A DNA stretch of 64,000 nucleotides from NCBI GenBank assembly GCA_009914755.4, contig CP068257.2:43744001-43808000 (forward strand), read 5' to 3'. Positions 1 to 64,000 of the stretch are shown piece after piece. This DNA is from the human T2T-CHM13v2.0 reference genome, Homo sapiens. The notes beneath the pieces are model-generated. The model was not told the origin of the DNA. It did no database searches and saw nothing but the letters and a program-made list of their open reading frames with translations. Within the stretch, counting starts at the first letter, position 1. The number at the start of each line of letters is the position of its first letter. A program made the translations under genes and the position numbers.

Positions 1-860
1 GGGACCTATGTTTTGGGAGGGGAAGAGTGGGGAGGATCATTTTCTCCTTCATTAATCACAGACACTTGGGTTTATTGTTGTCGACTTTCTCTGACATGTG
101 TTGGAGCCAATATTTATTTGTTAAAGGAAAACCAGCAGTAAAACATTTGCTTTGTTACAAAATAAAAGCCACATTCCAGGGAAGTATACAAAGGGCTTCG
201 CACACTGAGATGCCGCTCCCTGCCACGGGAGGCTGGACGACTGCACGGGAGAAAATTCCAGCCAGCCCCAGGCTCTTTGTGATTCTTCCTCTAAAGACTG
301 AAAGGAAGAAGCAATCTTCATTAACAAACAAACAAACCAAAGAGGGGAGCCGACTCTTACTGAAACTTTAAACAGAACCACATGGACCCTCCCAGGCTAG
401 TAATCCAAGTCTCCAATCCACTCACCCAGCCCTGGGGCAACTCGGGTTTCAAGCATAGAATTCTCTGTCACTTCCACCCAATACACAGGGACAAGGGCAC
501 TGCCAGGCTGCTCCCTCCTGGGCCCTCTCTTTGCATGACAAGGCAGTTGTGGTCTGAGACCTGGAGGTCCCGCAAAGCCAGCTCTAGGAGGGCCTGACCC
601 CAAACTCCTCCCCATCCCCGCAGTTCTCCCCCTGCCCTCCCAGCACCTCACCTTTCTTTGGGGCTGGCCAGGGAGGGAGGCCTTGGAGAAGCAGGCAGGT
701 GAGGCCCTGGGTGACCTCTCAGGTGACAGGGAGGCACATTGCACTGCTGTGACCGTGCCACCGCCCTCCTCAGTGACTTACGTGTCAGGGAAAATACTGA
801 GATTCCCCTGATTAGTCCTTTAGCCCAGGGATCACCAGGAACAGAGTCCCTAAACTGGAG

Positions 861-1108
861 GCCTGATTCTTTCTCATCACTGTCCAGAGCTGCTCTCACC
901 AGGGCCACGGTGGCCCCGAGCCGCCTGATTCCTTCTCATCACTGTCCAGAGCCGCTCCCATCAGGGCCAAGGTGGCCCCGAGCCGCCTGATTCCTTCTCA
1001 TCATTGTCCAGAGCCGCTCCCATCAGGGCCAAGGTGGCCCCGAGCCGCCTGATTCCTTCTCATCATTGTCCAGAGCCGCTCCCATCAGGGCCACGGTGGC
1101 CCCGAGCC
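861..1108. repeat. Minisatellite, 62-bp unit x4 (gcctgattccttctcatcactgtccagagccgctcccatcagggccaaggtggccccgagcc)
   Basis: Four near-identical head-to-tail copies are directly visible. The ORFs 739..990 and 1004..1279 show repeating peptide 'APSRLIPSHHCPEPLPSGPRWPRA', which is an artefact of the repeat. Confidence 0.92.
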
Positions 1109-1439
1109 AGCCACAGGAACCCGTCCCACTCTCCTCGGAACCTCCTCCCCAGCCCCCTGGGTATCAGGCTTGGTTTGCACCTTTGTCTCTGCTGCTCCCT
1201 GGTCACAGCGCACGCCCTCCCCATCCGGGGTGCTGTCCCTGCTCCTTCTCTGAACTCCTCTGTCCAGGGGCTGACTTGATTTCCCTGATTGCACCTCCCT
1301 GAGCCCCTCAGATCCAAAAGACCTGAGCCAACCCCTCACCTCTGCCTTGATTCTGGCATCTGCTGGGCCCGCCCCCAGGAGCCACATTCACAGCCTTGGA
1401 CATCCATCCCCACCTTCATGCTGACAGATCCCTAAGGGA

Positions 1440-1605
1440 GGTAAGAAAACTGAGGCACGGGGTGGTCAAATGCCTCAGCCATCAACACCCCACTGGTGGA
1501 TGGGAAGCCAGGGTTTGAGCCCCGGTGAGCCCAGGTGAGCTGGCTCCAGAGCCACTTATCAACGGAGGCTCGAATGTCCCAATCTCAGCACAGGTGGTGA
1601 ATGCT
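1440..1605 (+). mobile_element. MIR (ancient SINE) fragment
   Basis: Resembles the MIR core: 'aactgaggcacgg...agccagggtttgagccc...ctccagagccacttatcaac'. Confidence 0.5.
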
Positions 1606-1792
1606 ATCACGGGGAAGACACCCCTTCCTCTTCCATTTCCTCTGTCTTGATTCAGCCTTCTGGCCAGTTAATGTCAGCGCCGTGGTGCCCATCCCAGAAC
1701 AGAAGCTCCTGCTGATGAATAATTTCCGGCCTCACCGTGACCCAGCCTCTCCCGTGTTTATCTGTATCTATCTGTCATCTACCCCCACCTTA

Positions 1793-2580
1793 CACCCAGC
1801 GTCCGTCCATGCACACACGCTCACCTCGCACCCAGAGTCCGTCCGTGCACACACTCACCTTGCACCCAGAGTCCATCCATGCACACACGCTCATCTCTCA
1901 CCCAGCGTTGGTCCGTGCACACACGCTCACTTCGCACCCAGCATCCGTCCGTGCACACACGCTCACCTCGCACCCAGTGTCCATGCACACACACTCACCT
2001 CGCAACCAGCGTCCATCCATGCACACAGGCTCACCTCGCACCCAGCGTCCGTCCGTGCACACACGCTCACCTCGCACCCAGCGTCCGTCCGTGCACACAC
2101 GCTCACCTCGCACCCAGCGTCCGTCCGTGCACACACGCTCACCTCGCACCCAGCGTCCGTCCGTGCACACACGCTCACCTCGCACCCAGCGTCCGTCCGT
2201 GCACACGCTCACCTCGCACCCAGCGTCCGTCCGTGCACACGCTCACCTCGTACCCAGCGTCCGTCTGTGCACACATGCTCCCCTCGCACCGAGCGTCTGT
2301 CCGTGCACACGCTTACCTCACACCCAGCATCCATCTGTGCACACACGCTCCCCTCGCACCCAGCATCCGTGCACACGCTCACCTCGCACCCAGCATCTGT
2401 CCATGCACACACTCCCCTCGCACCTAGCGTCCGTCCATGCACATACTCACCTTGCACCCAGCATCCATCTGTGCACACACCCTCACCTCGCACCCAGCAT
2501 CTGTCCGTGCACACACGCTCACCTCACACACACTCCCCTCGCACCCAGCGTCCGTCGGTGCACACACGCTCACCTCCCGC
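1793..2580. repeat. Large CA/C-rich minisatellite, ~36-bp unit x ~21 (cacccagcgtccgtccgtgcacacacgctcacctcg)
   Basis: Highly regular tandem array with minor variants (ccatgcac, ctgtgcac). It generates the artefactual 485-aa ORF 1601..3058 and the overlapping repeat-peptide ORFs on both strands. Confidence 0.95.
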
Positions 2581-3248
2581 ACCTCCCGTGGAGGCGGCAT
2601 CCAGGCAGGGAAGCAAGGACACTCTGCGTCCATTCCTCTCTCTAAACACCAAGGCCCCCGCAATCCGAGGAATATATTTGACAGAAACAAGAAAAAAGGA
2701 TGAAAGTGGCCAAGACAAGCCGATCCCTTCTATCTGTTTTCAGGAACATGATTTTGTGGCCCCAAACTCCTTGAAGCCCGATGCTTCCACCTCCCTCCCA
2801 CTCCACTCTCCCCCGACACATCCGTCCAGCTCCCGTTCCTCTTGGGCACCCACCTCTGCCATCTCAGCAGGGTTCCCAGCACCCCCAGGCAAGGCCTGTG
2901 TGTGGCGCTTTACTGGGAGTGCGCTGGGGAAGAGGGAGGCATGGGCTGGAATAACCACAGAGACCGGCCCTGCACAGATAGCAGAAAGGGAAGGGGATGT
3001 GTTGCCCGGCCCACCTCGGCTCACGCAAGACGCTCGGACACTTGGAGACCTGGACTGAAGCAGCCTCCAGGGGAGGAGAGAGGGGTGCCGCTCACCACTG
3101 CCCCCTCCCAAGCCCAGCGTCTAGGTCTGGTTCACCCTCGCGAGGTCGCCTGGCCCATGTCTGGCTACCTGAGCTGGCCACTGCTGAGGCAAAGCCCACC
3201 CGGCTGCTGTTCTGGAAGTGGCTCTGGAAAGCCCAGCTCCTGTGGGTA

Positions 3249-3330
3249 CAGGATCGCTGAGCGCCAGGCATGGGGGCCACAGCCAAGGCAGGATCGCTGA
3301 GCGCCAGGCATGGAGGCCACAGCCAAGGCA
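3249..3330. repeat. Tandem duplication, 40-bp unit x2 (caggatcgctgagcgccaggcatgggggccacagccaagg)
   Basis: Two adjacent copies differing by one base. Confidence 0.9.
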
Positions 3331-5903
3331 GCCGCAGGGGCAGGTGCTGGGCTGTCTAGGAGCAGTGACCAAGCACCCAGAGGAGCCCAACAAGGCCCAG
3401 CACATAAAACCAGCAGCAGAGGCCCAGGAGCCACTTAGCCAGAGAGACACCTGGTGTTCACCCCAGCACGCAGATGGGGAAAGGCTAAAGCACAAAGAAG
3501 CAACTGTGTACAGAGAGCTTCACCCCGAAATCAGAGACAGCCAAAGTCCGCCCAGAGAGGAACTGGTCGGAGTCCTGTCCAGGCCGAAAGGTGGTGGGTG
3601 GGTGCTTTAGGGGCCAGTGGGGAGCGAGGCCGAAGCTATCTCTGTGCAGCTGCCCCCTCACGCTGCTGTGGCCCCAGGGTTTGGTTCAGATGCTGAGTGT
3701 CCGGTGACTTCTAGACACTTCCTTTCCAGTCTCAGGGAACCCACCCCACAAAGCGCCTGCCCCAGGACCTGGGTGGCGCGTCTGTGTCTTCTCAGCATAT
3801 CCGGTTCTTGGAGCAGGGAGACGACCCAGATCCTGCTCTCTGGCTCCTGGCCCGCTGCCCCCAAGCTGTCACCAAGGCAGGTCATGGATGTTCCGTGTCA
3901 TGGCTGCGTGGGCCGTTCGACCACGGCCACACACGCATAGACTGAGGAAGACAGAGCAAGGGGCTGATCGCTGCCAAGCAGTGGATGCCAGTGCACCGTG
4001 ACAAGGAGCCCAGAGCCTTTGGTGGGCGCCTGACTGTGTCTTCAAGTTCCCGGGATCTGTGTGGACAGCTGCCATCCCAGTCGGCCCTTTCTTGGTTTTC
4101 TTGGTTTTCAGAGAAGGGGCGAAGAATAAGGGGGCAGCGTCTTCTCCACCAGAAGACACACCTGCAAAGCTCCATGAAGGCAGGCGCTGGCTGAGGAGGA
4201 AGAAGGAAACAGGTCTCTCAGGAGCCTCTGCCCTTGCAGCCAGGGATGGGCAGGAGGCCAGTGCCTGGTAGGGAGCAGCCTGCGGGTTCAGCTCAGGTGT
4301 AAACAGCATGGTCAGCTGGAAAATGGTCCCCAAATACGCCAGGTCTCAATCCCTGTGGTGCTTGAATGTGACCTTATGTGGCAAATGTGTCTTTGGGGAT
4401 GGGATTGAGTTAGGATCCCGGGATGGGGGTGATCAACTGGGGTCATCCGGGTGGGCCCCAGGTGGCATTGCAAGGTTCGCACAAGACGGAGACTTGACAT
4501 GGAGGAAACCATGGACCACGGAGGCAGAGAGCACCATGAAGAGGCTGTCCACGAAGGTCAGAGCGATGCGGCCGCAAGCCAAGGAGTGCACGGCCGCTGG
4601 GAGCCAAGAGAAGCCAGCAGGACCTTCTCCGGGGCCTCAGAGGGGCCCCTTGGCCTAGTGATGCTGGTTTCAGACTCCTGCCCTCCAGACCGTGAGCATG
4701 CGTTTCCGTTGTTTAAAATCACCAAGGCTGTGGCCATTTGTCACAGCAACCCCAGGAAGTCCACAGAATGGGAAAGGAGACGGGAGAGGAGGATGGCTGG
4801 GCTCAGCTGTCAGGCTGGGCTGTGCGGGGCTCCCTTGGGTGGTGGGGAGGAGCCTCTGAAAGGGAGCTCAGGGAGGGGCTGCCCATGGAGAAAGCACTGG
4901 GTGGAGAAGCTGTCGGTCAATTATCTGGTGATTGCACCTGCCTGTTGCCAGTCACAGTCTTCCTCCAGGAGGGGTCACCGACCACGGGCCACATCCACTC
5001 CTCTCTGCTGCAGGAATCCTGTCCCTGCTAAAGCTGATCCTGGCTTTATCTGCCCTTTGCAGAGGTGTGGGGCTTTGGCCCTCCACTGGGCACCGCACAG
5101 CGTGGGAGCCCCCTCCCCCTGGCCCCTGCGGTGGGGTCGGCTGAAGCACTGGGCTGGTCACTCGGTGGAAAAGGACACAAGTTCCCCTTGGGGCCCAGAG
5201 GCTGCACATCCGTCCTTCCAGGACTGGGCCTAAGGAATTAAATGGCTGTGAAAACAGGGGCACTGTGAGCCCCAGAGTCGGGCCATGTCATCTGAGGATG
5301 ATGGTGGCAACAGCAAAGCTCCAGATGTGGACACAGTCCCTTCACCTACCGGGGCTGCACTTCCTCCGGTGCCACAGCCAGGCCAGGCGCCCTCCCTGAG
5401 GGAATCCGCGGGTCCCGACGGCCTCTGGGGTGAGACACTGGGACGTGCCTGCAGAGCAGCAAACACTCTCTGGGCCTCACACCCTCTTCCCGGCTGCACA
5501 GCGGCACCCCCAGGGGCCTGCCCCTGCTCAAAGCCAGCCCCACCGCCCAAGGTCTGGACCTGCCTGCCCTGCAGGTGGGGCTCAACTTCCTCGGGTTTTC
5601 TGCTCCCAGGTGATTTTCCTCCCTGCAGCCAGGGCTGAGCACCTCGGCCAAGTGGCTCTTTGCTTTAAGAAGAGAGGGAATCTCCCAGCCGCCAGCCCAT
5701 TGAGGCTCCCTGCACAGGACGGGACTCAGCGCCGCGGCGGTGGCATGGCCGTGCCGGGCTGTGCTGTGACCTGAGGCCTCGTCCGTGATGACCACGTCCT
5801 CGCAGAGCCTGGGGGCAGGGCCGGGGGGTGGTCAGATGCGGTGGAGCCTGTGCCCTGTGCATGACCGAAGCCACAAGCATCAAAACAGCTACATTCATGC
5901 TGA

Positions 5904-7675: not shown

Positions 7676-7980
7676 ATTTCCCCCAGATGTCCGCATCTTT
7701 CCCCCAGATGTCATCAGTGCCTGCTTCCCTCCCTGTGGAGGGCTCTGAGGGCCGACCCCCAAAGTCCATCTTTCCCCCAGATGTCATCAGTGCCTGCTTC
7801 CCTCCTTGTGGAGGGCTCTGACGGCCGACCCCCAAAGTCCATCTTTCCCCCAGATGTCATCAGTGCCTGCTTCCCTCCCTGTGGAGGGCTCTGAGGGCCG
7901 ACCCCCAAAGTCCATCTTTCCCCCAGATGTCATCAGTACCTGCTTCCCTCCTTGTGGAGGGCTCTGACGGCCGACCCCAG
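7676..7980. repeat. Minisatellite, ~73-bp unit x ~4.2 (ccccagatgtcatcagtgcctgcttccctccctgtggagggctctgagggccgacccccaaagtccatctttc)
   Basis: Visible head-to-tail copies. The ORFs on the minus strand repeating 'MGVGPQSPPQGGKQALMTSGGK' are artefacts. Confidence 0.93.
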
Positions 7981-8470: not shown

Positions 8471-8565
8471 AAAGTCAGGAGCATCCACAGGTCCACTCTG
8501 TCCCGGACACGTTCTCAAAGTCAGGAGCATCCACAGATCCACTCTGTCCCGGACACGCTCTCACG
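8471..8565. repeat. Tandem duplication, 46-bp unit x2 (aaagtcaggagcatccacaggtccactctgtcccggacacgttctc)
   Basis: Two adjacent near-identical copies. Confidence 0.88.
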
Positions 8566-9475: not shown

Positions 9476-10508
9476 ACAACCCTGACTGGCATGTGATGGC
9501 AGCCTCATGGGGCTCCAAGCCCATGTGTATGGGCTCCCTGTCTGTGCTGGAAGGTTCTACAGCAAAAATCAGCCCCTGCTCACCAGAGGCAAACTGAGCA
9601 TGAAAGGAAATGAAAGACGTGAACTTTAATGCCTCTCATGTGCCGGGAGAACGAGGTCACACAGCAAATCACGGCTCTTGGGAATCAGGATGTGTTTGAA
9701 AACTTCAGGGGCTCTGAGCCCTCATGAACCCAACTGATGGGCAAGCAGCCCAGGCCCAGGCTGGAGATGGGGATGGGGCTGGCCATGGTCCCTGCCAGGA
9801 GCTGGAAGCCACTCCCGCCCCTCCTGCTCTCTCCATGTCCACTGGACACTGTCCCTGGTCCTGGGAGAAGAGGGAAGGCCTCTCAGCCTCCACTGGAGGG
9901 ACTGCTGGGCGAGCCTGATCTACACCACAGCACTCCCCACCACAGGAGCGACTTCACTGACCCCAAGGGGGACACTTCCCTTAAAAGGATCATCCCACAC
10001 TGACCCTTGTCTTGGGAATCCCAAGTCGGAGGTCACGTCAGAGGCAGGAATCCAGGCTCAGGGACATCTGCCCTGTCCCCAGAGGTCTTTGTTGTCCGAA
10101 GCCCTGCATTCTCTGGCTCTAAGGAATTCTGAAGCTATTTTGGACACTGCAGCCCTTCCCAGGGTGGCCAGAAGAGGACAGGCAGGCTTGCTTGGGGTGG
10201 GAGGAAGCCGTGGTCCACACTGGAGCATAGAAACCAGCCCTGTAAGCCACCCTGCTGGCCTCACAGGTTGTAGGGAGCAAAGGCCGTGTTGAAGCCCAGG
10301 AGCCCCTCAGGAAGGAAACCCCTCAGACTAGGGAACATGGGGAGTGGGCAGCCACTCCTCCCCACCCTCAGGCCCATAAGCTGCACTCCCCACAGTCCCC
10401 AGGTTCATCCACAGGGAGGCCCCAGCAGGAAGGCAGGGCCAGGGCGCAGGGCGAGGTCGGGGGAATGGACTCCCCTGGGTTTCTCCCTGCCGATCGCTGT
10501 AGTGGTTG

Positions 10509-11010
10509 AGTCCTCCACTGAGCACAGCCACTCCTGTAGGCTTACCCCGCTGCAGCTCGCTCTCGGATCCTAATAAACAAGTGAGTCCTCCACTGAGCAC
10601 GGCCACTCCTGTAGGCTCACCCCACTGGAGCTCACTCTCGGACTCTAATAAACAAGTGAGTCCTCCACTGAGCACGGCCACTCCTGTAGGCTCACCCCAC
10701 TGGAGCTCACTCTCGGACTCTAATAAACAAGTGAGTCCTCCACTGAGCACGGCCACTCCTGTAGGCTCACCCCACTGGAGCTCGCTCTCGGACTCTAATA
10801 AACAAGTGAGTCCTCCACTGAGCACGGCCACTCCTGTAGGCTCACCCCACTGGAGCTCGCTCTCGGACTCTAATAAACAAGTGAGTCCTCCACTGAGCAC
10901 GGCCACTCCTGTAGCCTCGCCCTGCTGAACCACTCCTGTAGGCTCACCCCCACTGGACCACTACTGTAGGCTCACCCTGCTGGAGCACCCTCTCGGACTC
11001 TAATAAATGA
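10509..11010. repeat. Minisatellite, 75-bp unit x ~6.5; every unit carries AATAAA (…ctcaccccactggagctcactctcggactctaataaacaagtgagtcctccactgagcacggccactcctgtaggc…)
   Basis: Regular tandem copies. It generates the repeat-peptide ORFs 10506..10928 (+) and 10328..10933 (-). Degenerate units continue to about 11010. Confidence 0.93.
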
Positions 11011-13337: not shown

Positions 13338-13479
13338 GAGATTCGGGTGGGGACAAACCACATCACCTGGCTACCTACTACTGTACCACGCATACCCGGC
13401 CAAGATGAGATTCGGGTGGGGACACAGCCAAGCCACATCACCTGGCTACCTACTACTGTACCACGCATACCCGGCCAGG
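13338..13479. repeat. Tandem duplication, ~66–76-bp unit x2 (gagattcgggtggggaca...cacatcacctggctacctactactgtaccacgcatacccggcca)
   Basis: Two adjacent copies. The second has a 10-bp insertion (cagccaagc). Confidence 0.9.
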
Positions 13480-47794: not shown

Positions 47795-48649
<855 letters not shown>

Positions 48650-50289: not shown

Positions 50290-51036
<747 letters not shown>

Positions 51037-51710: not shown

Positions 51711-52135
51711 GGAGTGCTGTGTCTGTGAAGCGGGGTCATGGTTTTGGGGCCCTCATCTCCCTCGCGCCCTCTCATTGGGGACCCCCCGTCTCCCTAGCGC
51801 CCTCTCGTCCTCTCCTGCATGTGCTGTGTCTGTGAAGCGGGGTCATGGTTTTGGGGCCCCCCGTCTCCCTAGCGTTCTCTCGCCCTCTCCAGCATGTGAA
51901 GTGGGGTCATGGTTTGGGGGCCCCCATCTCCCTAGCGCCCTCTCGTTGGGGACCCCCCGTCTCCCTAGCGCCCTCTCGCCCTCGCCTGCATGTGCTGTGT
52001 CCATGAAGTGGGGTCATGGTTTGGGGGCCCCCTATCTTTCTAGCACCCTCTCGCCCTCTCCTGTATGTGAAGTGGGGTCATGGTTTGGGGGCCGCCATCT
52101 TTCTAGCGCCCTCTCGCCTTCTCCTGAGCGTGTGG
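51711..52135. repeat. Complex minisatellite, ~75-bp core with ~107-bp higher-order variants, ~5 units (gtgaagcggggtcatggttttggggcccccgtctccctagcgccctctcgccctctcc…)
   Basis: Repeating 'ggggtcatggtttgggggcc...tctccctagcgccctctcg' blocks. ORF 51520..52158 shows 'KRGHGFGAP...LAPSRPLL' repeats. Confidence 0.9.
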
Positions 52136-53184: not shown

Positions 53185-53420
53185 CGGCCCAGGGGAGGGG
53201 GGCAGGCAGGACCCGGCGGCCCAGGGGAGGGGGGCAGGCAGGACCCGGCGGCCCAGGGGAGGTGGGCAGGCAGGACCCGGCGGCCCAGGGGAGGGGGGCA
53301 GGCAGGACCCGGCGGCCCAGGGGAGGGGGCAGGCAGGACCCGGCGGCCCAGGGGAGGGGGGCAGGCAGGACTCGGCGGCCCAGGGGAGGGGGGCAGGCAG
53401 GACCAGGCGGCCCTGGGGGT
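53185..53420. repeat. G-rich minisatellite, 31-bp unit x ~7.5 (ggacccggcggcccaggggaggggggcaggca)
   Basis: Highly regular. It generates the ORFs 52839..53585, 53026..53442 and 53135..53503 with 'GGGQAGPGGPGE' repeats. Confidence 0.95.
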
Positions 53421-55849
53421 CAGGGGTGGAGGCCAGGCCTAGACGGCCCACAGGAGGGTGGACTCATTCTGACCGATTCCTGGAAGCCCCCGGAAAGTGG
53501 TGATGTTCTGGAGGGCCCAGCAGACCCCAAGGCCCCCAAGACAATCCCAGCTGGCTCTCTGCGGCTCTCGGTGTCTGCCATTTGAGACAATTTGGGCACA
53601 GGCAGGGCAGGCCGTCGCGGACGGTCTAAGCCGCGCGCATTGGTGGGGGCAGCAGAGCCCCTGCTCTCAGCTCCTCGGGGTACAGCGGGGGTACCAGGCG
53701 GGTGAGTGGGTGGGTGGTCACTGCTCCTGCCAAGGGCAGCCCTGGTTTGGTTTGCACTTGCTGCCCTGGTGACGGCTGCTCTCATTCCTGCCCCATTGCT
53801 AACAAGGGTGTCATAAGCTACTTTCCCGGCCCACATCCTATTAAGCCCATGGAGACCCTCCCACAGCTGAGCCTGCTGTGGGCTGCAGGCCCTGGGCGGT
53901 GCCCACCTCGGTCCCCACTGGCCTCCTTCCAGCACTTTAGAGCAGACACAGGTTGGAGATAAGGAAAGTTCCAGAGCACAGACTGGAACAAGCCCCAGGC
54001 CTCTCCCTGCCCCAGCAGGGCCTCCCTGGATTTGGGGGACAGGTGCCCTCATGGGGGGTCCTGAAGGTCAGAGCTGGGGCTGGGGCTGGGCTGGCGGAGG
54101 TGGCCTTGGCGGAGGCCACATTCCAGGGTCTCAGTGAGAGTCTGTGGCAGGCAGCCTTGCAGATGCCGCTGAGGGACCCCCCACTTCATGTTGTGGGTGA
54201 TGTGGTCCATTGATTGCCTCCAGGTTTAAATCAGGTGGATATTTACCTAGCGGCCTCCTCTCCCTCTGCACAGGGCCTGGAGTGGGATGGACTGGGGTGC
54301 TCAGCTGGAGGCTCTGCAGACACAGCCCCCTGGGCTATGCAGGCCCTGCTGGGAGCCACATTGCCATTTTTCATCACCCACTTTTTGGGTGAGAACCCCC
54401 TCGAGTCCTAACATCTGCCGCATCTCAGAGCCTGTGGCTCCAGTCAGAGCGTCTGGACCATACTGCTGGGGTCAGAGCGCGGCAGGACAATGGCCAGTTT
54501 CTGTGTGATTGCTGGCGGGAATCTTGAGCCATTCCGTGGGTCCGTGGGCTGGGATCTGGAAGCTTCCTTGAAATGTCTCTGGGCACGTGGCTCTGTGGGT
54601 CAGGGTGGGACATGGCCCCGTAGCAGGCTGTCCTACAGCAAAAGCCTGCTCTGTGAGCCAGCCCTGTGCAGGCCTCCCTCGGTACAGCCGGGAGGGGCCT
54701 CACCCTCCACCCACAGAAATCAAGGCTGCAGAAGACAGATGCCTGTGCCAACCCCTCCGGCAGAGTTATGCCAAATGTCCCACTAAATTCACCCCTCTAG
54801 GGAGAGGTGCCTCCTGCATCTACTTTTCCTAGAATAAGTATGAGAAACCCCAAATAGGTTCTAGAAAAAACAGCAGTGTACACAGATGTTAATCCTCTTC
54901 GAAACTTGACTGAGTCATTTAGCCAAAGAAAACAGCAACAATGGCTTCATTTCGAGAGGGTCACGGACACCCTTTCATGTTTGATTCCTTCTGACCTTGT
55001 GAGTTTATAGAAGGACAAGGAGAGAGGGACGTGCTGGGTTTGTTCAGATGTGGACAGAAAGTTTGGATGATAGGACAGAACATTTAGTTCAATCTTTCCA
55101 CTTATGGCTCTTAAAAGCCCTTTATTTTTATAGGTAACATGCTTTAAACAAACTTTAAAATTTGAGGTTGCTAGTACCCATTGTGTGTGGATTGGACCAG
55201 CTCCATGAGAGTGGAGCCCGGGAGCCTCTCTGGTCGTCTTTGTGTGCGTCTGTGCCTGTGCCTGGTAGTAGTTCTGTCTGGAAGGTGAGCAGGGCCACAG
55301 AGCACCAAGAAAATACCAGGGACTTTGCAGGTCTCGGGTGGATTCAGGTTGATCCAACAGATGCCGGCCCAGGGCCTGCAAGGAGGCTCCTTTCGCGTGG
55401 CTGCCGTGGCCCCTGTGAGCTGGGCTTGTCCTATGAGAAGAGCTCCTGCAAGAACACCTTTTGAAGTCACCCCTGGGGGAGATGAGCTGGATGGCATTTG
55501 GAGCCCCCAGCAGCTCACATTCCTGAGCTCTTGGTCCCATGTGGGATTCGATAATTTTCTTTACACTGACAGGCAGCATCTCTTTGGCCAGCCGTGTGAC
55601 TGTTGGGTCATGTGTCTTCTCTGTGCCTCAGTTTTTCTCCCCTGCAAATGGGTTCACTGAAAGCACTGGCCAGGGGAGGGGCTGTGGCATGGCATGACAG
55701 GCTGAGGGGCACTGAGCAGGTGCCAGGAGCCAGGTGGTGTCAGGTGAGCCCCCCAGGAACCCCAGTTTTTGTGCACGGTGGGAAAGAGACCATCAGGGGC
55801 GGAGGGGAATGAACACCCACCCTTTGGGGGCTCAGGTGCCAAACAGATG

Positions 55850-56035
55850 TGTGTGCAGGTGCATGAGCCAGGTGTGTGAGCAGGTGCATGGGCCAGGTGT
55901 GTGAGCAGGTGCATGGGCCAGATGTGTGAGCAGGTGCATGGGCCAGGTGTGTGAGCAGGTGCATGGGCCAGGTGTGTGAGCAGGTGCATGGGCCAGATGT
56001 GTGAGCAGGTGCATGGGCCAGGTGTGTGAGCAGAC
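55850..56035. repeat. Minisatellite, ~25-bp unit x ~7 (caggtgcatgggccaggtgtgtgag)
   Basis: Regular copies. The minus ORFs repeat 'HLLTHLAHAPAHTPGPCTCSHIWPM'. Confidence 0.93.
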
Positions 56036-57117
56036 ACTTCCTGTGCAAGCCTGTGCTCCTGTGGCTCATGGGTGCATGATCCAGAAACCCAGAGGCAGTG
56101 GCTTCACCGGGGTTGGTGATATTCAAGCTCTTGCAGGAGGGGGTTGTGGCAGGGCAGGACAGAAGCATCTGACCAGAGGGTGCAGGGCCACAGCATTTCT
56201 GCCCTCGGGGACAGGCGGCCCGTGCTGGGACGGGCGCAGGAGCTCCTGAAACCTCTGTTCTCAGTTCAGAAACCAGGTACCTTTCCCATCTGACCCCCCA
56301 GGCAGCCATTAACAGGTCCAGGTGAGAGAGTCTGTGCATGAGACCTACTTTCCTTGCTCTCTCCGGGGGGGTTTGCAGCAGTTCTGAGCATCAGGCCAGA
56401 GGCTGGGACTCCCTGCCTGAGTCGGGGTGAGGGCTTCCCGTGGCTCTGTGAGCTTCAGAGGCTTGGCATGTACAAGCAGGGCTGTTACAACAGCCTTTAA
56501 AAAATCATGGAGAAGAACCCAGTGCATCTTCTCCTCAGAGGGTGGCAGAGGCTGAATGAATTTGCATCTGGACGTTCCACTTCCACCTCCTTCCTAACCA
56601 AAGACTGTATATGCAGGTGGTTCGTGGATGTATCTGGGCTGACTGGCAGTGGGGAGATGGGGGCTCCCCCACGTCTTGGCGGGGGTCCCGGTGGGTTGCA
56701 GCCCCCAGAGCCGGGCTTCCCGGAAAGGGGCATCGCTTCTCTCTTTTGGGCTGTGCTGGGGTCTCTCTGGTGAGGGGTGACCCAGGGCCTTTGAACAGCC
56801 GGTCCTAGACCAGGCCCTGGTTCCTGTGATGCTGACAGGCTGTGGCTTGAGAGCCTGGGTCAGGAAAGCCCAGTCAGAGGGGAAGCCGGGGGCTGGTTCT
56901 GACCCTGCATGGTTTCCTGAGGGACGTGCTCAGTGGGATTTGTCCCTGGAGCACCAAGGGCTGAAGGAAAGCCACTGCCCTGCTTTCTCGCAGCCCTGGT
57001 CCCCATTCTTCTGTGGGTGCAGGTGGGGATGGTGGGGTGAACCCGCCCTCCTGGGGACAGATATAGGGATGCCGGGATGCCGCACTGCAGGTGTGAGTCC
57101 TGGGAAGTGGGTAGGGG

Positions 57118-57250
57118 GTCGATGGGAGGAAGAGAGGAAGGTGGGGTGGGGGCGGGAGGAGAGAAGAGGAAGAAGGGGGTGGGGGGAGGGAGGAAGGAAG
57201 AGGAGGAAGGTGGGGTGGGGGTGGGCGGAGGGAGGAGGAGGAAGTGGGGG
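57118..57250. repeat. Purine-rich (G/A, few T) low-complexity tract
   Basis: 'ggaagagaggaaggtggggtgggggcgggaggagagaagaggaagaagggggtggggggagggaggaaggaagaggaggaagg...'. Confidence 0.85.
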
Positions 57251-58544
57251 CGTCCCCATCAGAGACCTCCTGCAGACCTCCAGCTGTTTGGTCCATGGGT
57301 GGGTTGGTTAGGTCTGGGTTCAGAAGCCCCTTCAGTGTAGGTGCTCAGCTGGGCCATGGAGTCCTGGCCTTCCCTCTGAGCACAGACCCACCGGGAATGG
57401 GCAGCCCGTTCTTAGTGACCCTGGGGGCTGGGGAGCACCCACCCTCTGAGCCCCAGCTCGGCCTCCATGTGTCAGGTGGGAGGCACGGGCAGGGCCAGGC
57501 TGTGGGAGTCCGGGAGGGAGTCAGAGGTTGGCTGGGGCAGAGGTGGGGTCAGGGAGCAGGAAGTGAGCGTTTGCCCACTGGGGTAGACGCTGGGTGGATG
57601 GGGAGCTGGGAGTCCTATAGGGTGAAGGGTCTGCCGTGGGCTGAGGCATGTTGGGGCATCCCGAGTACCTATGGGCCCCTTGGACGTCCCCCCGGCGCTC
57701 CCTGGCACAGGTCTGCTCGGAGGGTGTCGGCCTCCTCTGCATTCAGGATCGTGGGTCTGTCAATTGGGACACCTATGAACAAATGCTCTTCCCATCAGTA
57801 ACTCCGTGTGCCCCTCTCTTGAGCCCCTGTGAGATGCACCCTGGGGTCCCAGCCTCACCCACTATCCTTCACAGCAGAGCTGTGGGTCCATGGCCCAGGC
57901 AGGGTGGCCAATTCCTGCCCACTGCAGTCGGCAAGGGGGACACTGGGGCCTCAGGCTCATCTTCTGGGTGCGTTTATAAAGCCAGCACAATGTGCAGCGT
58001 TTGCAGACAGTATCCTCTGTGAGCAAGAGCATGTTTAAAGGGGGCTCATTTGAAACCCTACCTACAGGGCTGCCATCCCTCTGGTGAATGCCCACGTGGG
58101 TGACAGTGATTCTAGCCCTTGATTTCCTTGAGCTGATGGTGGGCCCCTGGGCTGAGGAGACCCTCAGCCAGGAGGTCCCAGGCCCAGGGATGAGTGAGCT
58201 GTACAGCAGTGTCACAGCAAAGCAGCCACCCTCACCCGGGGCCCATCCAGCGTGTGCAGTGGGCAGAAGCCTGCGTGAGCTGGGCAGGGACGAGGGACTG
58301 TGCCGCCGCCCCATTGTGAATCTGTGTTCATTTTCCTGACTTCCTTCATTTCTTGTGATTTTAAAGCTGGGGAGTGGAGATTCTACTTCCTGCTCTATCT
58401 GGAAGGAGAGGGCTTTCGGTTCGGCAAAAAAGTCGTCTTTGTGGGCGCCTGTGCCTCAGGCCACGTGGAGGCCACATGGAACTCCCATTGGGGAGGGGAC
58501 CATGGGACTGGATGGCGGGAAAGTGCCCCACCCCTGCAGCCCTG

Positions 58545-58905
58545 GAACTGTGGCTGGGGTGGGGCTGAGGCTGGGGGAGGGGGTCTGGTGGGGAGGGAGC
58601 TGAGGCTGCTCAGGGGACTGCTGGTGGGGGGCCCTAGAAGGAGGGAGCCGTGGCTGTGGGGTCCCTGATGGGAGGGAGATGTGGCTTGGCGGGGAAGCTG
58701 TGGAGGGAGGGAGCTGTGGCTACTGGGGAGCTGTGGCTGGGGGAGTGCCGTGCCTGGGGGTCTGTGACTGGGGAGTTGCTGGCTGGGGGGCAGCCATGGC
58801 TGGGGGAACCCTGGCTAGGGAGGGGCTGGCTAGGGGCGAGCCGGGCTGCGCGGGGCCCTGGCTGGGGAGCAGCTGGCTGTGGCAGGAGCTGTGGCTGGGG
58901 CTTCT
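58545..58905. repeat. Degenerate G-rich tandem repeat (gctgtggctgggg / ggagggagctgaggctg variants)
   Basis: Multiple iterations of 'ggctgggg(g)ag..gctgtg'. The translated 'LAGGQPWLGEPWLGRGWLG' is an artefact. Confidence 0.75.
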
Positions 58906-58994
58906 GCTGTCTGCATCCGTTCCTGTACATAGTGAAGGTGGGTTCTATTGCCAAGGTTCTGCAGGTGAGGGTGTGTGCTGTTCACACCACAGCA

Positions 58995-60195
58995 TCACAC
59001 AGGCACTCTCCTGCACACACACACTCACACACACACTCAGACACACAGGCACTCTCCTGCACACACACTCACACTCAGACACAGGCACTCTCCTGCACAC
59101 ACACTCACACTCACAGACACACAGGCACTCTCCTGCACACACACACACAGACACAGGCACTCTCCTGTACACACACACTCACACACTCAGACACACAGGC
59201 ACTCTCCTGCACACACACACACTCACACAGGCACTCTCCTGCACACACACACACACTCAGACACACAGGCACTCTCCTGCGCGCACACACACACACTCAG
59301 ACACACAGGCACTCTCCTGCACACACACACTCACACTCAGACACACAGGCACTCTCCTGCACACACACACTCACTCACAGACAGACACACAGGCACTCTC
59401 CTGCACACACTCACACTCACAGACAGGCACTCTCCTGCACACACTCACACTCACAGACAGGCACTCTCCTGCACACACTCACACTCACACACAGGCACTC
59501 TCCTGCACACACACACTCAGACACACAGGCACTCTCCTGCACACACACACTCACACTCAGACACAGGCACTCTCCTGCACACACACACACACAGACACAG
59601 GCACTCTCCTGTACACACACACACTCACACACTCAGACACACAGGCACTCTCCTGCACACACACACACTCACACAGGCACTCTCCTGCACACACACACAC
59701 TCAGACACACAGGCACTCTCCTGCACACACACACACACACACAGGCACTCTCCTGCACACACACTCACACTCAGACACACAGGCACTCTCCTGCACACAC
59801 ACACACTCACTCACACACAGACACACAGGCACTCTCCTGCACACACTCACACTCACACTCAGACAAGCACTCTCCTGCACACACTCACACTCACACTCAG
59901 ACACACAGGCACTCTCCTGCACACACACTCACTCAGACACAGGCACTCTCCTGCATACACACACTCACACTCAGACACACAGGCACTCTCCTGCACACAC
60001 ACACTCACACACTCAGACACACAGGCACTCTCCTGCACACACACACACTCACACACTCAGACACACAGGCACTCTCCTGCACACACACACACTCAGACAC
60101 ACAGGCACTCTCCTGCACACACACACACTCACACACTCACTCAGACACACAGGCACTCTCCTGCACACACACACACTCACACACTCAGACCCTCA
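58995..60195. repeat. Large CA/C-rich minisatellite, ~40-bp unit x ~30 (acacacaggcactctcctgcacacacacactcacactcag), about 1.2 kb
   Basis: Very regular array with variable (ca)n/(ctca) spacers. It generates the 608-, 584- and 483-aa artefact ORFs (58650..60476, 58679..60433, 58975..60426) and the cysteine-rich minus-strand artefacts. Confidence 0.96.
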
Positions 60196-62249
60196 CACTC
60201 CAGGGCTGGGCAGGGGACCCCGGACCTGGCCTCTGGAGCTCATCCCTGGGTGCCTGGGCAGGGAGTGCCGGTCACACTGTGCACCCATCCTTGTTTTCTC
60301 GATGTTGGGTTTACTTTTCCTGCCGGCTGCACGGCCTGCCCTTCTCAGGGCTTTGGGCTACTCTGCAGGGCTGGTGTTCAGGGCAGGAAAGGGGAAGGGG
60401 CAGTGGAGAGGGAGTGTGTGCTGTAGAGGCTAAGACCCCATTTGCACTGAGCCCTTCCATGGCTGTTCAACTCTGACGGGAGTCCACTGAGGCTCAGGAC
60501 GCCTCTGCAGGGTGCCAGGGCCACGCAAGCTCCACAGCACGTGGACAAAGGCGCATCTAATCCTTGCAGGCAGAGTGGCTTATTAGACACGTTAGCAGGT
60601 CTGTCTGTGCAGCCGGAAGGAAGAAAGTGAAGTTAGATGCCCACATGTGACTTGGCATCCAGAGGCACATTCCAGATGGCGACCCGGGGCTCCCTGGTGT
60701 GGTCTGGGGGCCGGTGGGGGCCGAGGGGCTGCTGTGGGTCTGTGTGGAGATGGATACCGAAAGCCACAGGACGTGCTTAGGGACTTGCATGGCAATTTGG
60801 CAGGGCCGTTCCCAGCGCAAAGAAAGGCTGTCGGAGGTGCAGGCCACGCTCATCACCCGCATCTGACCCCACCAGGCATCCCACAAATGTGACCCTTATG
60901 TGTCTGTTAAAAACTACACTTAACGTTTTTTAATTCGAGAAAACCTATCTGTTGCTGTTATGTACAGTGCTGTAATCAGCAAACGTGTTCCTTGGTCATT
61001 TCCGCAACAGAACACAGTGGGAGGGGCCTGCTCTTCCGCAGCACCCCAGGCAGGCCTGGACCGCCCGAGTGGCCGTGGTCCAGGGGCGCGGAGGGCGCAG
61101 CGCGTTCCGTTTCGGCTCCTCTGGTGCGTGCCTCGTGTGCGTGTGAGCAGAGGCCGTGTGGATGCCGGGCGCCCGCCGGTCACGGGCTGGTGGGCAGAGA
61201 GGTCATGACCTTTTACTTTCTAGGCCTTTACGTATCGCAACGTGTGCGTTACGTTCATCATAAAAACGTCCGACGAAACCAAGAGCAAAGTGAACTTCTT
61301 GGTGAAAGTTGCCATTGGGACTTCGGTGCCTGCTGAGAAATGCCTGGGCCTCTGGCTCCCCCTGGCGGCCGGTCCCTGGCTTGACGGAAGCGCGTCGCGC
61401 GGGCTCCAGACGTCCTGGGCCAAGTCCTGTGCGCGGGGCCTCCGGGTCTGCGAGCTGCGGCCGTGTTCAGAGCGTGTTTTGCCCGGAGCTGCTGCCAGCC
61501 TGGGCGGCTTTGGGCGCGTGCAGCAAGCAGGGTTTGGATTTGGAAGTGCAGCTCGTCCTGGCGCCAAGCACAGAGCCTGGCCTCTAAGATGCTCGAGAAA
61601 TGCCGCTCTCTGCGCCCCTGAGTGCTCAGTGCGAGCCTGTGAAGTCCATTACAGTCTCCGGCTGTGAATGTAGCAAGGAGTGGGAACTAGGCCTGGGAGA
61701 TGGGAGTGTTTGTCTGATGACTTCCTGAGCGAAAGCAAACTGGGAAATCTCGGGCTGCGCGCTGGTGCCCCGACTCCGCACCTCCTACCCCTTCTGTGGG
61801 GCCAGCACCCAGAAAGCGCCAGCGGAGGCTGGCAGGCCGTGGGCCGCATGGGCGGAGGGGCCGGTCCTCCGATGATGGGGCAAACGTCTCCGGCCTAGCC
61901 CCCGACGCTCGGGGATGTAAGGGCAAGGGCTGCGGGGTCGGAACGTCGGCTGTGGCTGTGGCTGTGTGACTGCTCCGCACCAGCTCAGCTTCCTCACCTG
62001 TGCACACAGGCTCCCGCTGGAATTTGCTGCGTTCTCCAAGCTCTGCAAGATTCAGAAGCAGAGGCCTCCCTGGGCTCTCACAGCCCCTTAGCTTCTTGCC
62101 CACCCACGGAGAGGGTCCAGAGCTGCCCCTTGCTGTCTGTGAGGAAAGCGGGTGCTTCAGGCCTGCCAGGGGTCCACTGGGAGTTGCTGGGTGGGCTCCT
62201 CAGGCCCTGCCCAGGGCTGACCCCTGGCTCCAGGTCCTGGGCCTCCGTG

Positions 62250-62617
62250 CCATGTTCCCCGCAAGCAGTCGGGGCCTGCTGGGGTTTGAGCCACGTTCCC
62301 CGGAAGCAGTCGGGGCCTGCTGGGGTTTGAGCCACGTTCCCCGGAAGCAGTCGGGGCCTGCTGGGGTTTGAGCCACGTTCCCCGGAAGCAGTCGGGGCCT
62401 GCTGGGGTTTGAGCCACGTTCCCCGGAAGCAGTCGGGGCCTGCTGGGGTTTGAGCCACGTTCCCCGGAAGCAGTCGGGGCCTGCTGGGGTTTGAGCCACG
62501 TTCCCCGGAAGCAGCTGGGGCCTGCTGGGGTTTGAGCCACGTTCCCCGGAAGCAGTCGGGGCCTGCTGGGGTTTGAACCACGTTCCCCGGAAGCAGTCAG
62601 GGCCTGCGGGGGTTTAT
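62250..62617. repeat. Minisatellite, 41-bp unit x ~9 (gagccacgttccccggaagcagtcggggcctgctggggttt); each unit contains an ETS-type CCGGAAGC core
   Basis: Nine head-to-tail copies, the first and last variant. It generates the ORFs 62078..62581 (-) and 62000..62371 (+) with repeating peptides. Confidence 0.95.
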
Positions 62618-64000
62618 GTCACACCCTGGCTGCACGTGGGGATCGTGTCTAAGCTTTTTGGAAATGTCGATGCCGGACTCCGCCCCAGACCTGGAGCTAG
62701 GAACTGGCCCCTGGCCGTGGGCCCAGGCAGGGTGAGGTTTCCCAGCACCCTGGGTGATCTGAACTTGGGAGCAGGGCTGGAACCTGGGGGCAAGATCAGC
62801 ACTTCTAGGACGTTATCGTGCGTGGGAACCACGGGACGCTCACTCATAGGAGGCTCAGCAGTTCTCTCGCTGTGCCGAGGCTGATGGAGACCTCACTGCT
62901 TGCCCCCGGGATGCAAACCCCGGGGACACCCGCCTTTCCGCTCCAAGCTCTGCCCACCGCCTCACATGGCCCTGGGAATTACAACAGACTTTCCCATCTC
63001 CCCACTATGGGCGGAATCTGCTGCAGCTGCCCAGACCTGGGGTCTTGCAGGTTCTGGACACCACAGCTCCCCTACACACAGAGGCTGCTCCTGCGTGGCC
63101 CTGGTCCCTCACCTCTACTTCTGGCACACGCTCCTCCACCTGCTGCCCTTCAGGGTTCATCGAGGTCTTATTTTGGTTCTGTACTGGGAGAGGGGGAAGC
63201 AATGGGGCAAGACGCTGCCCCTACTGTCCCCAGAAGATGAGGGACAGCACAGATGCCCAGGTAGAGTTTTCCTGTGTTAAATCATAAAACCCCCACATGC
63301 CCATCCCAGGTGCCCCACCTGCCCCAGCAGCTGCCTCCAGGCCTCGGGACGCTTGAACCCACCTCGAGGGCTGCCAGCTCCTGGCCTGGAGGTGCCCCCA
63401 CCGGGTCCTCCAGTCCTGCTGCCCGGTGGCTCTGGCCATGGTTCCCGTCCCGGGCTGTTCATGTTCCCCCTGCTCCTCTCCGTGATCTGCCATCTCTGCT
63501 TCACCAGCCGGCGCCTTCTACAGAACACGGCCGTGAGCTTCCCATGTTCTGCCGCTGGCTCTTCACGCCAACAGGTCTCCTCTGAGCAGGGCCAGCTTAT
63601 GGCATGGCGCCGGGTCAGCTCTCACCTGTCCCCCTCAGACGCCCACCTCTGATATGCAACTATTTCCAGCAGAAAATGTCCCATGTCCTTAAAGGATGGA
63701 GCACGCTGCTGGGAACACGGCTCTCTCCATAAAGGAGGGACTCCCCATGCCACTCCCAAGGCCACGGGAGGCCGCCCTCAGCACAGGGTCCATGGGGTCT
63801 CGGGGTCTCCCTGCCAAAGCACAGGCCTGGTGACCCCCTGGGACCCTCACTCCAGGGAGAGGACTGTGCATCTTGTGTGCTTCTCACAATCACTGTGTGG
63901 GGTTCAGCCCAGGGGAGGTCACCTCGCCCTCATCCACGCAGTCCTGCGGGGAGGCCCATTTGCCCTGACTGCACAGTCCTGCAGCTCGGCTGTGCCCTTG

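What the first reader, a model, noticed from the sequence alone, without database searches (positions are those of the whole stretch)
1..64000. Exceptional minisatellite density (over 25 independent GC-rich VNTR-type arrays in 64 kb) marks a subtelomere-like, recombination-prone domain
Outside the L1/Alu island almost every few kilobases carries a different tandem array with 31–75-bp units, for example at 861, 1793, 7676, 10509, 15548, 40437, 51711, 53185, 55850, 58995 and 62250. This architecture is characteristic of human subtelomeric and pericentromeric-proximal GC-rich isochores, which are hotspots for meiotic recombination, VNTR polymorphism and assembly errors. Array copy numbers here are probably polymorphic and may differ from the reference. 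It also means all long ORFs in these regions are artefacts.
Basis: partly seen in the sequence, partly recalled or inferred. Interest (0 to 1): 0.5.

Follow-up and report, generated by a model that had tools for sequence, protein, structure and literature searches.

The report
Minisatellite-dense 5′ end of COL18A1
The window really is packed with unrelated GC-rich minisatellites, about nine times the genome average, but it is the start of the collagen XVIII gene (COL18A1) in distal 21q22.3, where such density is a well-documented, ordinary property of the last few megabases of human chromosome arms.

Summary
Tandem Repeats Finder gives 38 separate arrays covering 11.2% of the window, against about 3 arrays in composition-matched shuffles.

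"Over 25" depends on the threshold. There are 35 arrays with unit ≥10 bp, 24 with score ≥100, and 18 by the usual VNTR definition (unit ≥10 bp, tract ≥100 bp). The genome mean by that definition is about 2 per 64 kb. The arrays are unrelated to one another and, apart from the promoter GC-box array, have no counterpart in the orthologous cat locus.

The locus is the 5′ end of COL18A1: about 27 kb upstream, a CpG-island promoter, exons 1–2 (the short-isoform signal peptide) and 37 kb of intron 2. COL18A1 lies in 21q22.3, about 1.3 Mb from the telomere by my recollection. The cat ortholog lies 1.26 Mb from a scaffold end.

"Subtelomere-like" therefore holds in the broad sense (last 5 Mb) but not the strict one: there are no TTAGGG tracts, and the region is a unique-copy gene colinear with cat. 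Polymorphism and recombination could not be tested.

The long ORFs are chance products of GC-richness. This is a known phenomenon of low interest.

The parts
861..1108 (.). minisatellite, 62 bp × 4.0 copies, 96% match, GC 0.64
   Evidence: TRF
1786..2587 (.). minisatellite, 36 bp × 21 copies with 104/140-bp higher-order periods, 84% match, C-rich on + strand
   Evidence: TRF; GC skew −0.49
3249..3331 (.). two-copy tandem duplication, 40 bp, 97% match
   Evidence: TRF
7694..7978 (.). minisatellite, 73 bp × 3.9 copies, 96% match
   Evidence: TRF; unit identity to consensus 0.95–1.0
8471..8563 (.). two-copy tandem duplication, 46 bp, 95% match
   Evidence: TRF
10507..10982 (.). minisatellite, 75 bp × 5.5 copies, 97% match, plus a degenerate 28-bp tail
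   Evidence: TRF
13334..13477 (.). two-copy tandem duplication, 75 bp, 92% match
   Evidence: TRF
15543..15786 (.). minisatellite, 36 bp × 6.8 copies, 94% match, GC 0.77, G-rich on + strand
   Evidence: TRF
16300..24400 (.). AT-rich block (GC 0.39–0.47) with 6 Alus and one L1 ORF2-like fragment (19099–19203, − strand); no array of at least 100 bp; partly colinear with cat
26200..28100 (+). CpG island and COL18A1 promoter 1 (GC 0.76)
   Evidence: alignment to cat L001 9837–11002
26806..26891 (.). GC-box (CCCGCCC-type) tandem array just upstream of exon 1; the only array with a positional counterpart in cat
26988..26998 (+). COL18A1 exon 1 coding part (ATGGCGCCGAG, 11 nt); GT donor at 26999–27000
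   Evidence: sequence; cat fragment P0001 83% identical; fits the published c.12-2A>T numbering (PMC2671584)
27136..27230 (+). COL18A1 exon 2 (95 nt), the rest of the short-isoform signal peptide; AG acceptor at 27134–27135, so the Knobloch c.12-2A site is 27134
27231..64000 (+). COL18A1 intron 2, incomplete; exon 3 is extrapolated to lie about 14 kb beyond the window end
   Evidence: colinearity with cat as far as 56.8 kb; next cat exon at L001:50371 carries DUF959 + Fz
33344..33477 (.). two-copy tandem duplication, 67 bp, 91% match
   Evidence: TRF
38284..38427 (.). two-copy tandem duplication, 74 bp, 95% match
   Evidence: TRF
40432..40601 (.). minisatellite, 59 bp × 2.9 copies, 98% match
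   Evidence: TRF
40976..41230 (.). degenerate minisatellite, 18–20 bp unit with 40/58-bp higher-order periods, 74–80% match
   Evidence: TRF
43848..44036 (.). CA-rich compound minisatellite, 14/69 bp periods
   Evidence: TRF; compositional similarity to 58995
44114..44194 (.). two-copy tandem duplication, 40 bp, 97% match; contains GGGCAGGAGG twice
45072..45159 (.). weak minisatellite, 23/46 bp periods
   Evidence: TRF
47047..47187 (.). two-copy tandem duplication, 77 bp, 89% match
   Evidence: TRF
51724..52126 (.). 171 bp × 2.3 copies with internal 33/63-bp periodicity, 89% match
   Evidence: TRF
53177..53418 (.). minisatellite, 32 bp × 7.6 copies, 96% match, GC 0.83, purine-rich on + strand
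   Evidence: TRF
55844..56033 (.). minisatellite, 25 bp × 7.6 copies, 95% match, no CpG
   Evidence: TRF
57103..57249 (.). G/A-rich minisatellite, 34 bp × 3.6–4.3 copies; 90% purine; contains G4 motifs
58687..58900 (.). degenerate minisatellite, 17/47 bp periods
   Evidence: TRF
58995..60191 (.). largest array: about 30 copies of a 34–40-bp unit (CA-run + CAGGCACTCTCCTG), about 80% match, 15% indels
   Evidence: TRF
62249..62615 (.). minisatellite, 41 bp × 9.0 copies, 97% match; six of the nine units identical to the consensus

Best explanation
The window is unique-copy primate (human-type) DNA from the 5′ end of COL18A1 in distal 21q22.3. It comprises about 27 kb of upstream sequence, the CpG-island promoter 1, exons 1–2 and most of the roughly 50-kb intron 2.

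The dense minisatellites are a regional by-product, not a system. In the GC-rich, recombination-active last few megabases of chromosome arms, short local tandem duplications of 25–77 bp arise repeatedly. Here at least 7 such events are still at two copies. Some of them are then expanded and homogenised by replication slippage and by recombination-associated repair (unequal sister or allelic exchange, gene conversion or SDSA at double-strand breaks).

Each array is born from its own local sequence, turns over quickly (it is absent from cat), and carries no coding function.

Shown here: the arrays, their independence, their excess over chance and over the genome mean, the gene identity, and the lack of conservation. 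Inferred: the birth and expansion mechanism, the high recombination rate, and copy-number polymorphism.
For: Array density:
- 38 arrays covering 11.2% of the window, against 3.0 arrays in local shuffles.
- 18 VNTR-class regions against about 2.0 expected per 64 kb. The expectation comes from 89,893 merged regions across the autosomes (numbers in 10.1101/2020.12.16.423078; computed).

Independence and turnover:
- The units are mutually unrelated.
- No array except the promoter GC-box array has a positional counterpart in the colinear cat locus. The cat locus has only about 5 VNTR-class arrays in 60 kb.
- Unit identity is 94–98% in nine arrays, higher than the 76–90% identity of the window's Alus to the consensus. 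This points to recent growth or ongoing homogenisation.
- Higher-order periods (36/104/140 at 1786; 34/40/78/116 at 58995) show multi-unit exchanges.

Locus identity:
- Exons 1 and 2 encode [35 protein letters not shown], which is 83% identical to the cat fragment P0001.
- The 11-nt coding part of exon 1 fits the published short-isoform-only mutation c.12-2A>T in intron 1 (PMC2671584).
- The next exon in cat, about 40 kb downstream, carries DUF959 (E = 5e-52) and Fz (E = 4e-17), the N-terminal architecture of the collagen XVIII long isoform.
- PMC2671584 places COL18A1 at 21q22.3. The cat ortholog lies 1.26–1.32 Mb from the end of a 157.7-Mb scaffold.

Literature: VNTRs with GC >60% and unit >15 bp are 21-fold enriched within 5 Mb of chromosome arm ends (PMC7608644).
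Against: - No second human haplotype could be examined, so polymorphism is unproven. Scans of public contigs found no human allele.
- The recombination rate was not measured.
- PRDM9-type 13-mers are only about 2-fold enriched (16 against 7.6 expected), and only one lies inside an array.
- The Jeffreys-type core is enriched (9 against 2.5 expected), but occurs in only one array, as 2 of the 9 matches.
- Only 8 of the 54 G4 motifs fall inside arrays. No single sequence driver therefore explains the arrays.
- The distance to the telomere (about 1.3 Mb) rests on my memory of the coordinates plus the cat position, not on a mapping done here.
- A transposon origin for some units could not be excluded, because no repeat library was available.
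Confidence: 0.85

Rival explanations
1. This is a true structural subtelomere: a patchwork of inter-chromosomal segmental duplications and subtelomeric repeat families lying next to the telomere.
For: The sequence is GC-rich and array-dense.
Against: - There are no TTAGGG-like tracts, even allowing one mismatch.
- The region holds a single-copy gene promoter and exons.
- It is colinear over 40 kb with the cat ortholog, including conserved non-coding blocks.
- The arrays are unrelated to each other rather than members of a shared family.
- The gene lies more than 1 Mb from the chromosome end.
Confidence: 0.03
2. The arrays derive from transposable elements, for example SVA VNTR regions or the internal repeats of LTR or DNA elements, so the density reflects element insertions rather than local duplication.
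For: - Two weak TRF loci are Alu A-tails (21908, 44783).
- A metagenome contig (L002) carries about 3 units that are 95% similar to the 58995 array but has unrelated flanks. At least that motif therefore exists elsewhere.
- The 75-bp unit at 10507 contains AATAAA.
Against: - There is no SVA hexamer array.
- None of the strong arrays overlaps an Alu.
- The units are all different from each other, which is not expected from one element family.
- Several arrays are simple two-copy duplications of local sequence.
Confidence: 0.07
3. The arrays are selected regulatory elements (transcription-factor-site clusters or VNTR 'tuning knobs') that control COL18A1 promoter choice or neighbouring genes.
For: - The GC-box array at 26806–26891 sits in the promoter and is conserved in position in cat.
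- The literature reports thousands of VNTRs whose copy number correlates with expression or methylation (10.1101/2020.12.16.423078).
Against: - Apart from the promoter array, no array is conserved in cat. The blocks that are conserved in intron 2 lie between the arrays, not in them.
- No paper in the library links a COL18A1 VNTR to expression.
Confidence: 0.05

Closest known systems
GC-rich, long-unit VNTR enrichment in the terminal 5 Mb of human chromosome arms (Linthorst et al. 2020, PMC7608644; earlier minisatellite mapping by Royle, Amarger and Vergnaud, cited from memory)
   Same: - Unit sizes above 15 bp.
- GC above 60% in 12 of the 18 VNTR-class arrays.
- Roughly 9-fold excess over the genome mean.
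- Intronic or intergenic location in a gene of distal 21q22.3.
- Arrays unrelated to one another.
   Different: Nothing qualitative. COL18A1 is not among the outlier genes named in that paper (PTPRN2, DLGAP2), and it does not appear in the two supplementary files held as text. Polymorphism of these particular arrays was not shown here.
Classical hypervariable minisatellites (Jeffreys core-type, e.g. MS32, CEB1)
   Same: Tandem GC-rich units of 25–77 bp. Many have marked strand asymmetry (GC skew up to 0.94). They lie distally on the chromosome.
   Different: Only one array contains the GGGCAGGANG core. Most arrays have few copies (2–9). Germline instability and polarity could not be assessed from a single haplotype.
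Structural subtelomeres (Mefford & Trask 2002; Riethman 2004, cited via PMC7608644's reference list)
   Same: High GC content and an abundance of tandem repeats.
   Different: No TTAGGG islands. The region is a unique-copy gene with conserved synteny, and lies more than 1 Mb from the chromosome end.

Membership tests
Minisatellite / VNTR | Head-to-tail repeats with units of about 10–100 bp | tested here: met
   35 TRF arrays have period ≥10 bp. 18 have a tract ≥100 bp.
Minisatellite / VNTR | More arrays than composition alone would give | tested here: met
   38 arrays against a mean of 3.0 (maximum 6) in 30 local dinucleotide shuffles.
Minisatellite / VNTR | Copy number varies among individuals | not testable with these tools
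   No human haplotype collection is available. Public contig scans returned no allele of this locus.
Terminal-5-Mb GC-rich VNTR domain (sensu PMC7608644) | Lies within 5 Mb of a chromosome arm end | tested here: met
   The test is indirect. The locus is identified as the COL18A1 5′ end, and COL18A1 is at 21q22.3 (PMC2671584). The cat ortholog is 1.26 Mb from a scaffold end. The figure of about 1.3 Mb from 21qter is from memory.
Terminal-5-Mb GC-rich VNTR domain (sensu PMC7608644) | Arrays predominantly have GC >60% and unit >15 bp | tested here: met
   12 of the 18 VNTR-class arrays meet both criteria.
Terminal-5-Mb GC-rich VNTR domain (sensu PMC7608644) | Elevated meiotic recombination | not testable with these tools
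   Only a proxy is available. The PRDM9 13-mer occurs 16 times against 7.6 expected, and 1 of 100 shuffles reaches 16.
Structural subtelomere (duplicated subtelomeric repeats) | Interstitial (TTAGGG)n-like tracts or subtelomeric repeat families | tested here: not met
   TTAGGGTTAGGG has 0 matches with up to 1 mismatch.
Structural subtelomere (duplicated subtelomeric repeats) | Sequence shared among several chromosome ends | not testable with these tools
   No human genome was available to search. The unique gene and the colinearity with cat argue against it.
COL18A1 promoter 1 / exons 1–2 / intron 2 | Exon 1 carries 11 coding nucleotides and exon 2 begins at c.12 (short-isoform signal peptide) | tested here: met
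   The sequence reads ATGGCGCCGAG|GT at 26988–27000 and AG|G at 27134–27136. This matches the c.12-2A>T intron 1 numbering in PMC2671584. The cat exon pair has the same structure.
COL18A1 promoter 1 / exons 1–2 / intron 2 | Followed, after a large intron, by an exon 3 that encodes the DUF959 and frizzled domains | tested here: met
   Shown in the cat ortholog, which is colinear with the window: DUF959 E = 5.5e-52 and Fz E = 3.8e-17. Human exon 3 itself lies beyond the end of the window.
SVA-derived VNTR | (CCCTCT)n hexamer plus Alu-like flank next to the VNTR | tested here: not met
   No hexamer array is present with up to 2 mismatches.

The most novel reading that the evidence does not exclude
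The twelve or so arrays inside COL18A1 intron 2, which separates the two promoters, might be length-polymorphic modulators of promoter choice (short against long/frizzled isoforms). They could act, for example, through array-length-dependent methylation or R-loop or G4 formation on the transcribed strand. That would make this a cluster of expression VNTRs for a gene involved in Knobloch syndrome and endostatin production.
Probability: 0.07. Interest if true: 0.4.

Novelty: already known. Interest (0 to 1): 0.15.

Why it matters
Mainly as a caution for annotation. In windows like this one, long ORFs and repeat-rich stretches are non-coding noise, while the real gene content (an 11-nt and a 95-nt coding exon behind a CpG island) is easy to miss. 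The arrays are plausible sites of structural variation and short-read mis-mapping around a disease gene (COL18A1, Knobloch syndrome). The regional phenomenon itself is well described and gives no new biology.

Tried and rejected
- **Rfam:** a gathering-threshold scan of the whole window found no hits.
- **Protein database search with the exon 1–2 peptide:** this returned only a 36-aa cat fragment and no named human protein. The gene had to be identified through the cat locus, Pfam and the literature.
- **Pfam on 10 ORFs:** no hits. The set comprised 8 long ORFs and 2 L1-like ORFs, so the L1 call rests on one 35-aa match to an ORF2 sequence I recalled from memory.
- **Translation of the human–cat conserved blocks:** no open frames, so no further exons were found in the window.
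- **Search for other human alleles of the arrays:** metagenome and GTDB contig collections gave nothing for the 41-bp unit or in GTDB genomes. One metagenome contig (L002) carries a similar motif but has unrelated flanks. The polymorphism test therefore failed for lack of data.
- **Literature search for COL18A1-specific VNTRs:** only incidental co-mentions turned up. The supplements of three VNTR papers were either not held or did not mention the gene. The Denoeud/Vergnaud 2003 paper is not held. A search for the signal peptide string found nothing.
- **Common sequence driver:** the PRDM9 motif, the Jeffreys core and G4 motifs were each considered and rejected, because most copies lie outside the arrays.

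Full report
**1. Checking the observation**

Tandem Repeats Finder over the whole window returns 70 rows. These merge into 38 non-overlapping arrays covering 7,164 bp, or 11.2% of the sequence. Thirty dinucleotide-preserving shuffles, done in 1-kb blocks so that local composition is kept, give a mean of 3.0 arrays (maximum 6) and 1.3 arrays with score ≥100. The excess is therefore real.

The number of arrays depends on the definition:

| Definition | Arrays |
|---|---|
| Period ≥10 bp | 35 |
| Score ≥100 | 24 |
| Score ≥100 and ≥2.5 copies | 13 |
| UCSC TRF parameters, motif ≥10 bp, tract ≥100 bp, merged | 18 |
| Of those 18, GC >60% and unit >15 bp | 12 |

Four TRF loci are CpG-island low complexity or lie in a coding exon (26806, 27048, 27163, 27513). 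Two are Alu A-tails (21908, 44783). "Over 25" is therefore the generous end of a defensible range of 18–35.

**2. How exceptional is the density?**

A preprint (10.1101/2020.12.16.423078) reports 886,954 autosomal rows in the UCSC Simple Repeats track. Filtering to motif ≥10 bp and tract ≥100 bp and merging leaves 89,893 regions. It also states that tandem repeats span about 3% of the genome.

Scaled to 64 kb, that is about 19.7 rows and 2.0 regions. With the same TRF parameters the window has 56 rows and 18 regions, and 10.1% of it is covered. This is roughly 3-fold for all tandem repeats and 9-fold for VNTR-class arrays.

That is high for the genome but within what is reported for distal chromosome arms. 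There, VNTRs are 7.1-fold enriched, and GC-rich VNTRs with long units are 21-fold enriched, within 5 Mb of arm ends (PMC7608644).

**3. Independence and structure of the arrays**

- An all-against-all comparison of consensus units finds no relationship, apart from compositional similarity of about 67–70% among three CA-rich arrays (25344, 43848, 58995). Each array arose from its own local sequence.
- At least seven strong arrays are simple two-copy duplications of 40–77 bp at 89–97% identity: 3249, 8471, 13334, 33344, 38284, 44114 and 47047. Others have 3–9 copies. Two are large: 1786–2587 with about 21 copies, and 58995–60191 with about 30 copies.
- Higher-order periods (36/104/140 and 34/40/78/116) indicate exchanges of several units at once.
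- Unit identity to the consensus is 0.92–1.0 in most clean arrays. This is higher than the 76–90% identity of the window's Alus to an Alu consensus, which argues for recent growth or ongoing homogenisation.
- Strand skews are often strong but not consistent in direction.
- No shared driver motif emerged:
  - The PRDM9-type 13-mer occurs 16 times against 7.6 expected, and only one copy lies inside an array.
  - GGGCAGGANG occurs 9 times against 2.5 expected, with two copies in one array.
  - G4 motifs are abundant (26 on the + strand, 28 on the − strand), but only 8 lie in arrays.

**4. What the locus is**

The window is 57.9% GC overall. It has one AT-rich block at 16.3–24.4 kb and a CpG island at 26–28 kb with GC 0.76.

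The CpG island contains ATGGCGCCGAG|GT at 26988–27000. After a 135-bp intron there is an AG acceptor and a 95-nt exon at 27136–27230. Together these encode [35 protein letters not shown], a signal peptide.

The only database relative is a 36-aa cat fragment, P0001, which is 83% identical. Its genomic locus (L001) has the same two-exon structure. L001 is colinear with the window from 16.3 to 56.8 kb.

About 40 kb downstream in cat, the next gene model starts with an exon whose translation carries Pfam DUF959 (E = 5.5e-52) and a frizzled domain (E = 3.8e-17). This is the distinctive N-terminal architecture of the long isoform of collagen XVIII.

The literature states the following (PMC2671584):
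- COL18A1 is at 21q22.3 and has 43 exons.
- A second promoter lies upstream of exon 3.
- The Knobloch-syndrome mutation c.12-2A>T in intron 1 affects only the short isoform.

An exon 1 with exactly 11 coding nucleotides, as found here, puts c.12-2 at the acceptor A at window position 27134. That fits exactly.

I therefore identify the window as about 27 kb of upstream sequence, COL18A1 promoter 1, exons 1–2, and about 37 kb of intron 2. Twelve Alus show that it is primate DNA. Extrapolating from the cat colinearity places exon 3 about 14 kb beyond the window end. That agrees with my recollection that the two promoters are about 50 kb apart.

**5. Testing "subtelomere-like"**

From memory, the COL18A1 start is about 1.3 Mb from the 21q telomere. 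The cat ortholog is 1.26–1.32 Mb from the end of a 157.7-Mb scaffold. The locus therefore falls in the operational "subtelomeric" class used in the VNTR literature, the last 5 Mb of an arm.

It is not a structural subtelomere:
- There are no TTAGGG-like tracts.
- The region is a unique gene.
- It is colinear with a carnivore genome and includes conserved non-coding blocks.

The "pericentromeric" alternative in the finding is not relevant. Copy-number polymorphism, recombination rate and assembly problems could not be tested. Attempts to find other human alleles in public contig collections returned nothing usable.

**6. Turnover**

None of the human arrays has a positional counterpart in the cat locus, except the promoter GC-box array (26806–26891, matching cat 9787–9925) and a pseudo-array inside coding exon 2.

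The cat's 60 kb holds 21 TRF loci covering 5.9%. Of that, 1.3 kb is a (CATC)n microsatellite, and only about 5 loci are VNTR-class arrays.

The regional tendency to form arrays is therefore shared, but the arrays themselves are lineage-specific and more numerous in the primate sequence. The blocks that are conserved lie between arrays, not within them. This argues against selected function for most arrays.

**7. Long ORFs**

The window has 105 ORFs of ≥120 aa, against 91.6 ± 7.8 in shuffles. The longest is 608 aa, within the shuffle range (mean of the longest 441 aa, maximum 698 aa). The four longest lie in the two big arrays, but 64 of the 105 touch no array.

Ten ORFs were scanned against Pfam, and none has a hit. 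They included the three longest that overlap arrays, five other long ORFs and two L1-like ORFs.

The statement also hides the fact that real coding sequence is present. ORF 27119–27922 contains exon 2 in frame and then reads on into the intron.

**8. Most likely mechanism**

This part is inferred. Local tandem duplications arise often in this GC-rich distal domain. Some of them then expand and are homogenised by replication slippage and by recombination-linked repair (unequal exchange, gene conversion or SDSA).

The evidence here that fits this model:
- many two-copy "births";
- a few expanded arrays with higher-order periods;
- high within-array identity;
- mutual unrelatedness of the arrays;
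- absence from cat.

Rivals are listed with their evidence in the rival explanations: a structural subtelomere, transposon-derived arrays, and selected regulatory arrays. None is favoured. The transposon rival could not be fully tested because no repeat library was available. No SVA hexamers were found.

**9. Verdict**

The regional interpretation is right in the broad sense and is already well documented. The claims about polymorphism and recombination remain untested. The notable omission is the gene. Novelty: already known. Interest: low.

Noticed in passing
window 26988-26998 and 27136-27230 (+); CpG island 26200-28100: These are real coding exons 1 and 2 of the COL18A1 short isoform (its signal peptide), behind a CpG-island promoter.
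   Followed up: yes
window 26806-26891; L001 9787-9925: A tandem array of CCCGCCC-type GC boxes (94% GC) lies about 100–180 bp upstream of the ATG. It is the only array with a positional counterpart in cat. It is probably a cluster of Sp1-type promoter sites rather than a neutral minisatellite.
   Followed up: partly
window 28889-29226, 29770-29942, 31771-31840, 52386-52555, 52858-53007, 54841-55077: These blocks in intron 2 are 75–84% identical to cat and colinear with it. All six reading frames are closed, so they are candidate enhancers or other conserved non-coding elements lying between the arrays.
   Followed up: partly
window 16300-24400: The 'L1/Alu island' holds 6 Alus but only one detectable L1 ORF2-like fragment (19099–19203, − strand). 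Parts of it (16302–16841 and 20682–23845) align colinearly with cat. Much of the AT-rich block is therefore ancient sequence shared with carnivores, not primate-specific insertions.
   Followed up: partly
L002 (ERZ1033957 contig NODE-11312, 1034 bp) 546-760: A metagenome contig carries about three units that are 95% similar to the 58995–60191 array, but its flanks do not match the window. The same CA-run + CAGGCACTCTCCTG motif therefore exists at another locus or in another species, presumably as host contamination of the metagenome.
   Followed up: partly
L001 10001-50197 and 50371 onward: The cat genome annotation splits COL18A1. Exons 1–2 are called as a separate 36-aa 'hypothetical protein' whose gene range spans 40 kb. 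A 1,514-aa model starts at exon 3.
   Followed up: partly
L001 54992-56321: There is a 1.33-kb (CATC)n microsatellite in the cat locus, downstream of the DUF959/Fz exon. It has no counterpart in the part of the human locus covered by the window.
   Followed up: no
window, whole: There are 54 canonical G-quadruplex motifs (26 on the + strand, 28 on the − strand), about 0.84 per kb. Four consecutive ones lie on the − strand inside the promoter GC-box array (26809–26898).
   Followed up: partly
window 5922-6209, 11222-11508, 34030-34323, 44634-44949, 47952-48240, 50755-51036: Six further Alus lie outside the AT-rich block, so Alus are not confined to the 'island'. None interrupts a strong array, and no strong array interrupts an Alu.
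   Followed up: yes
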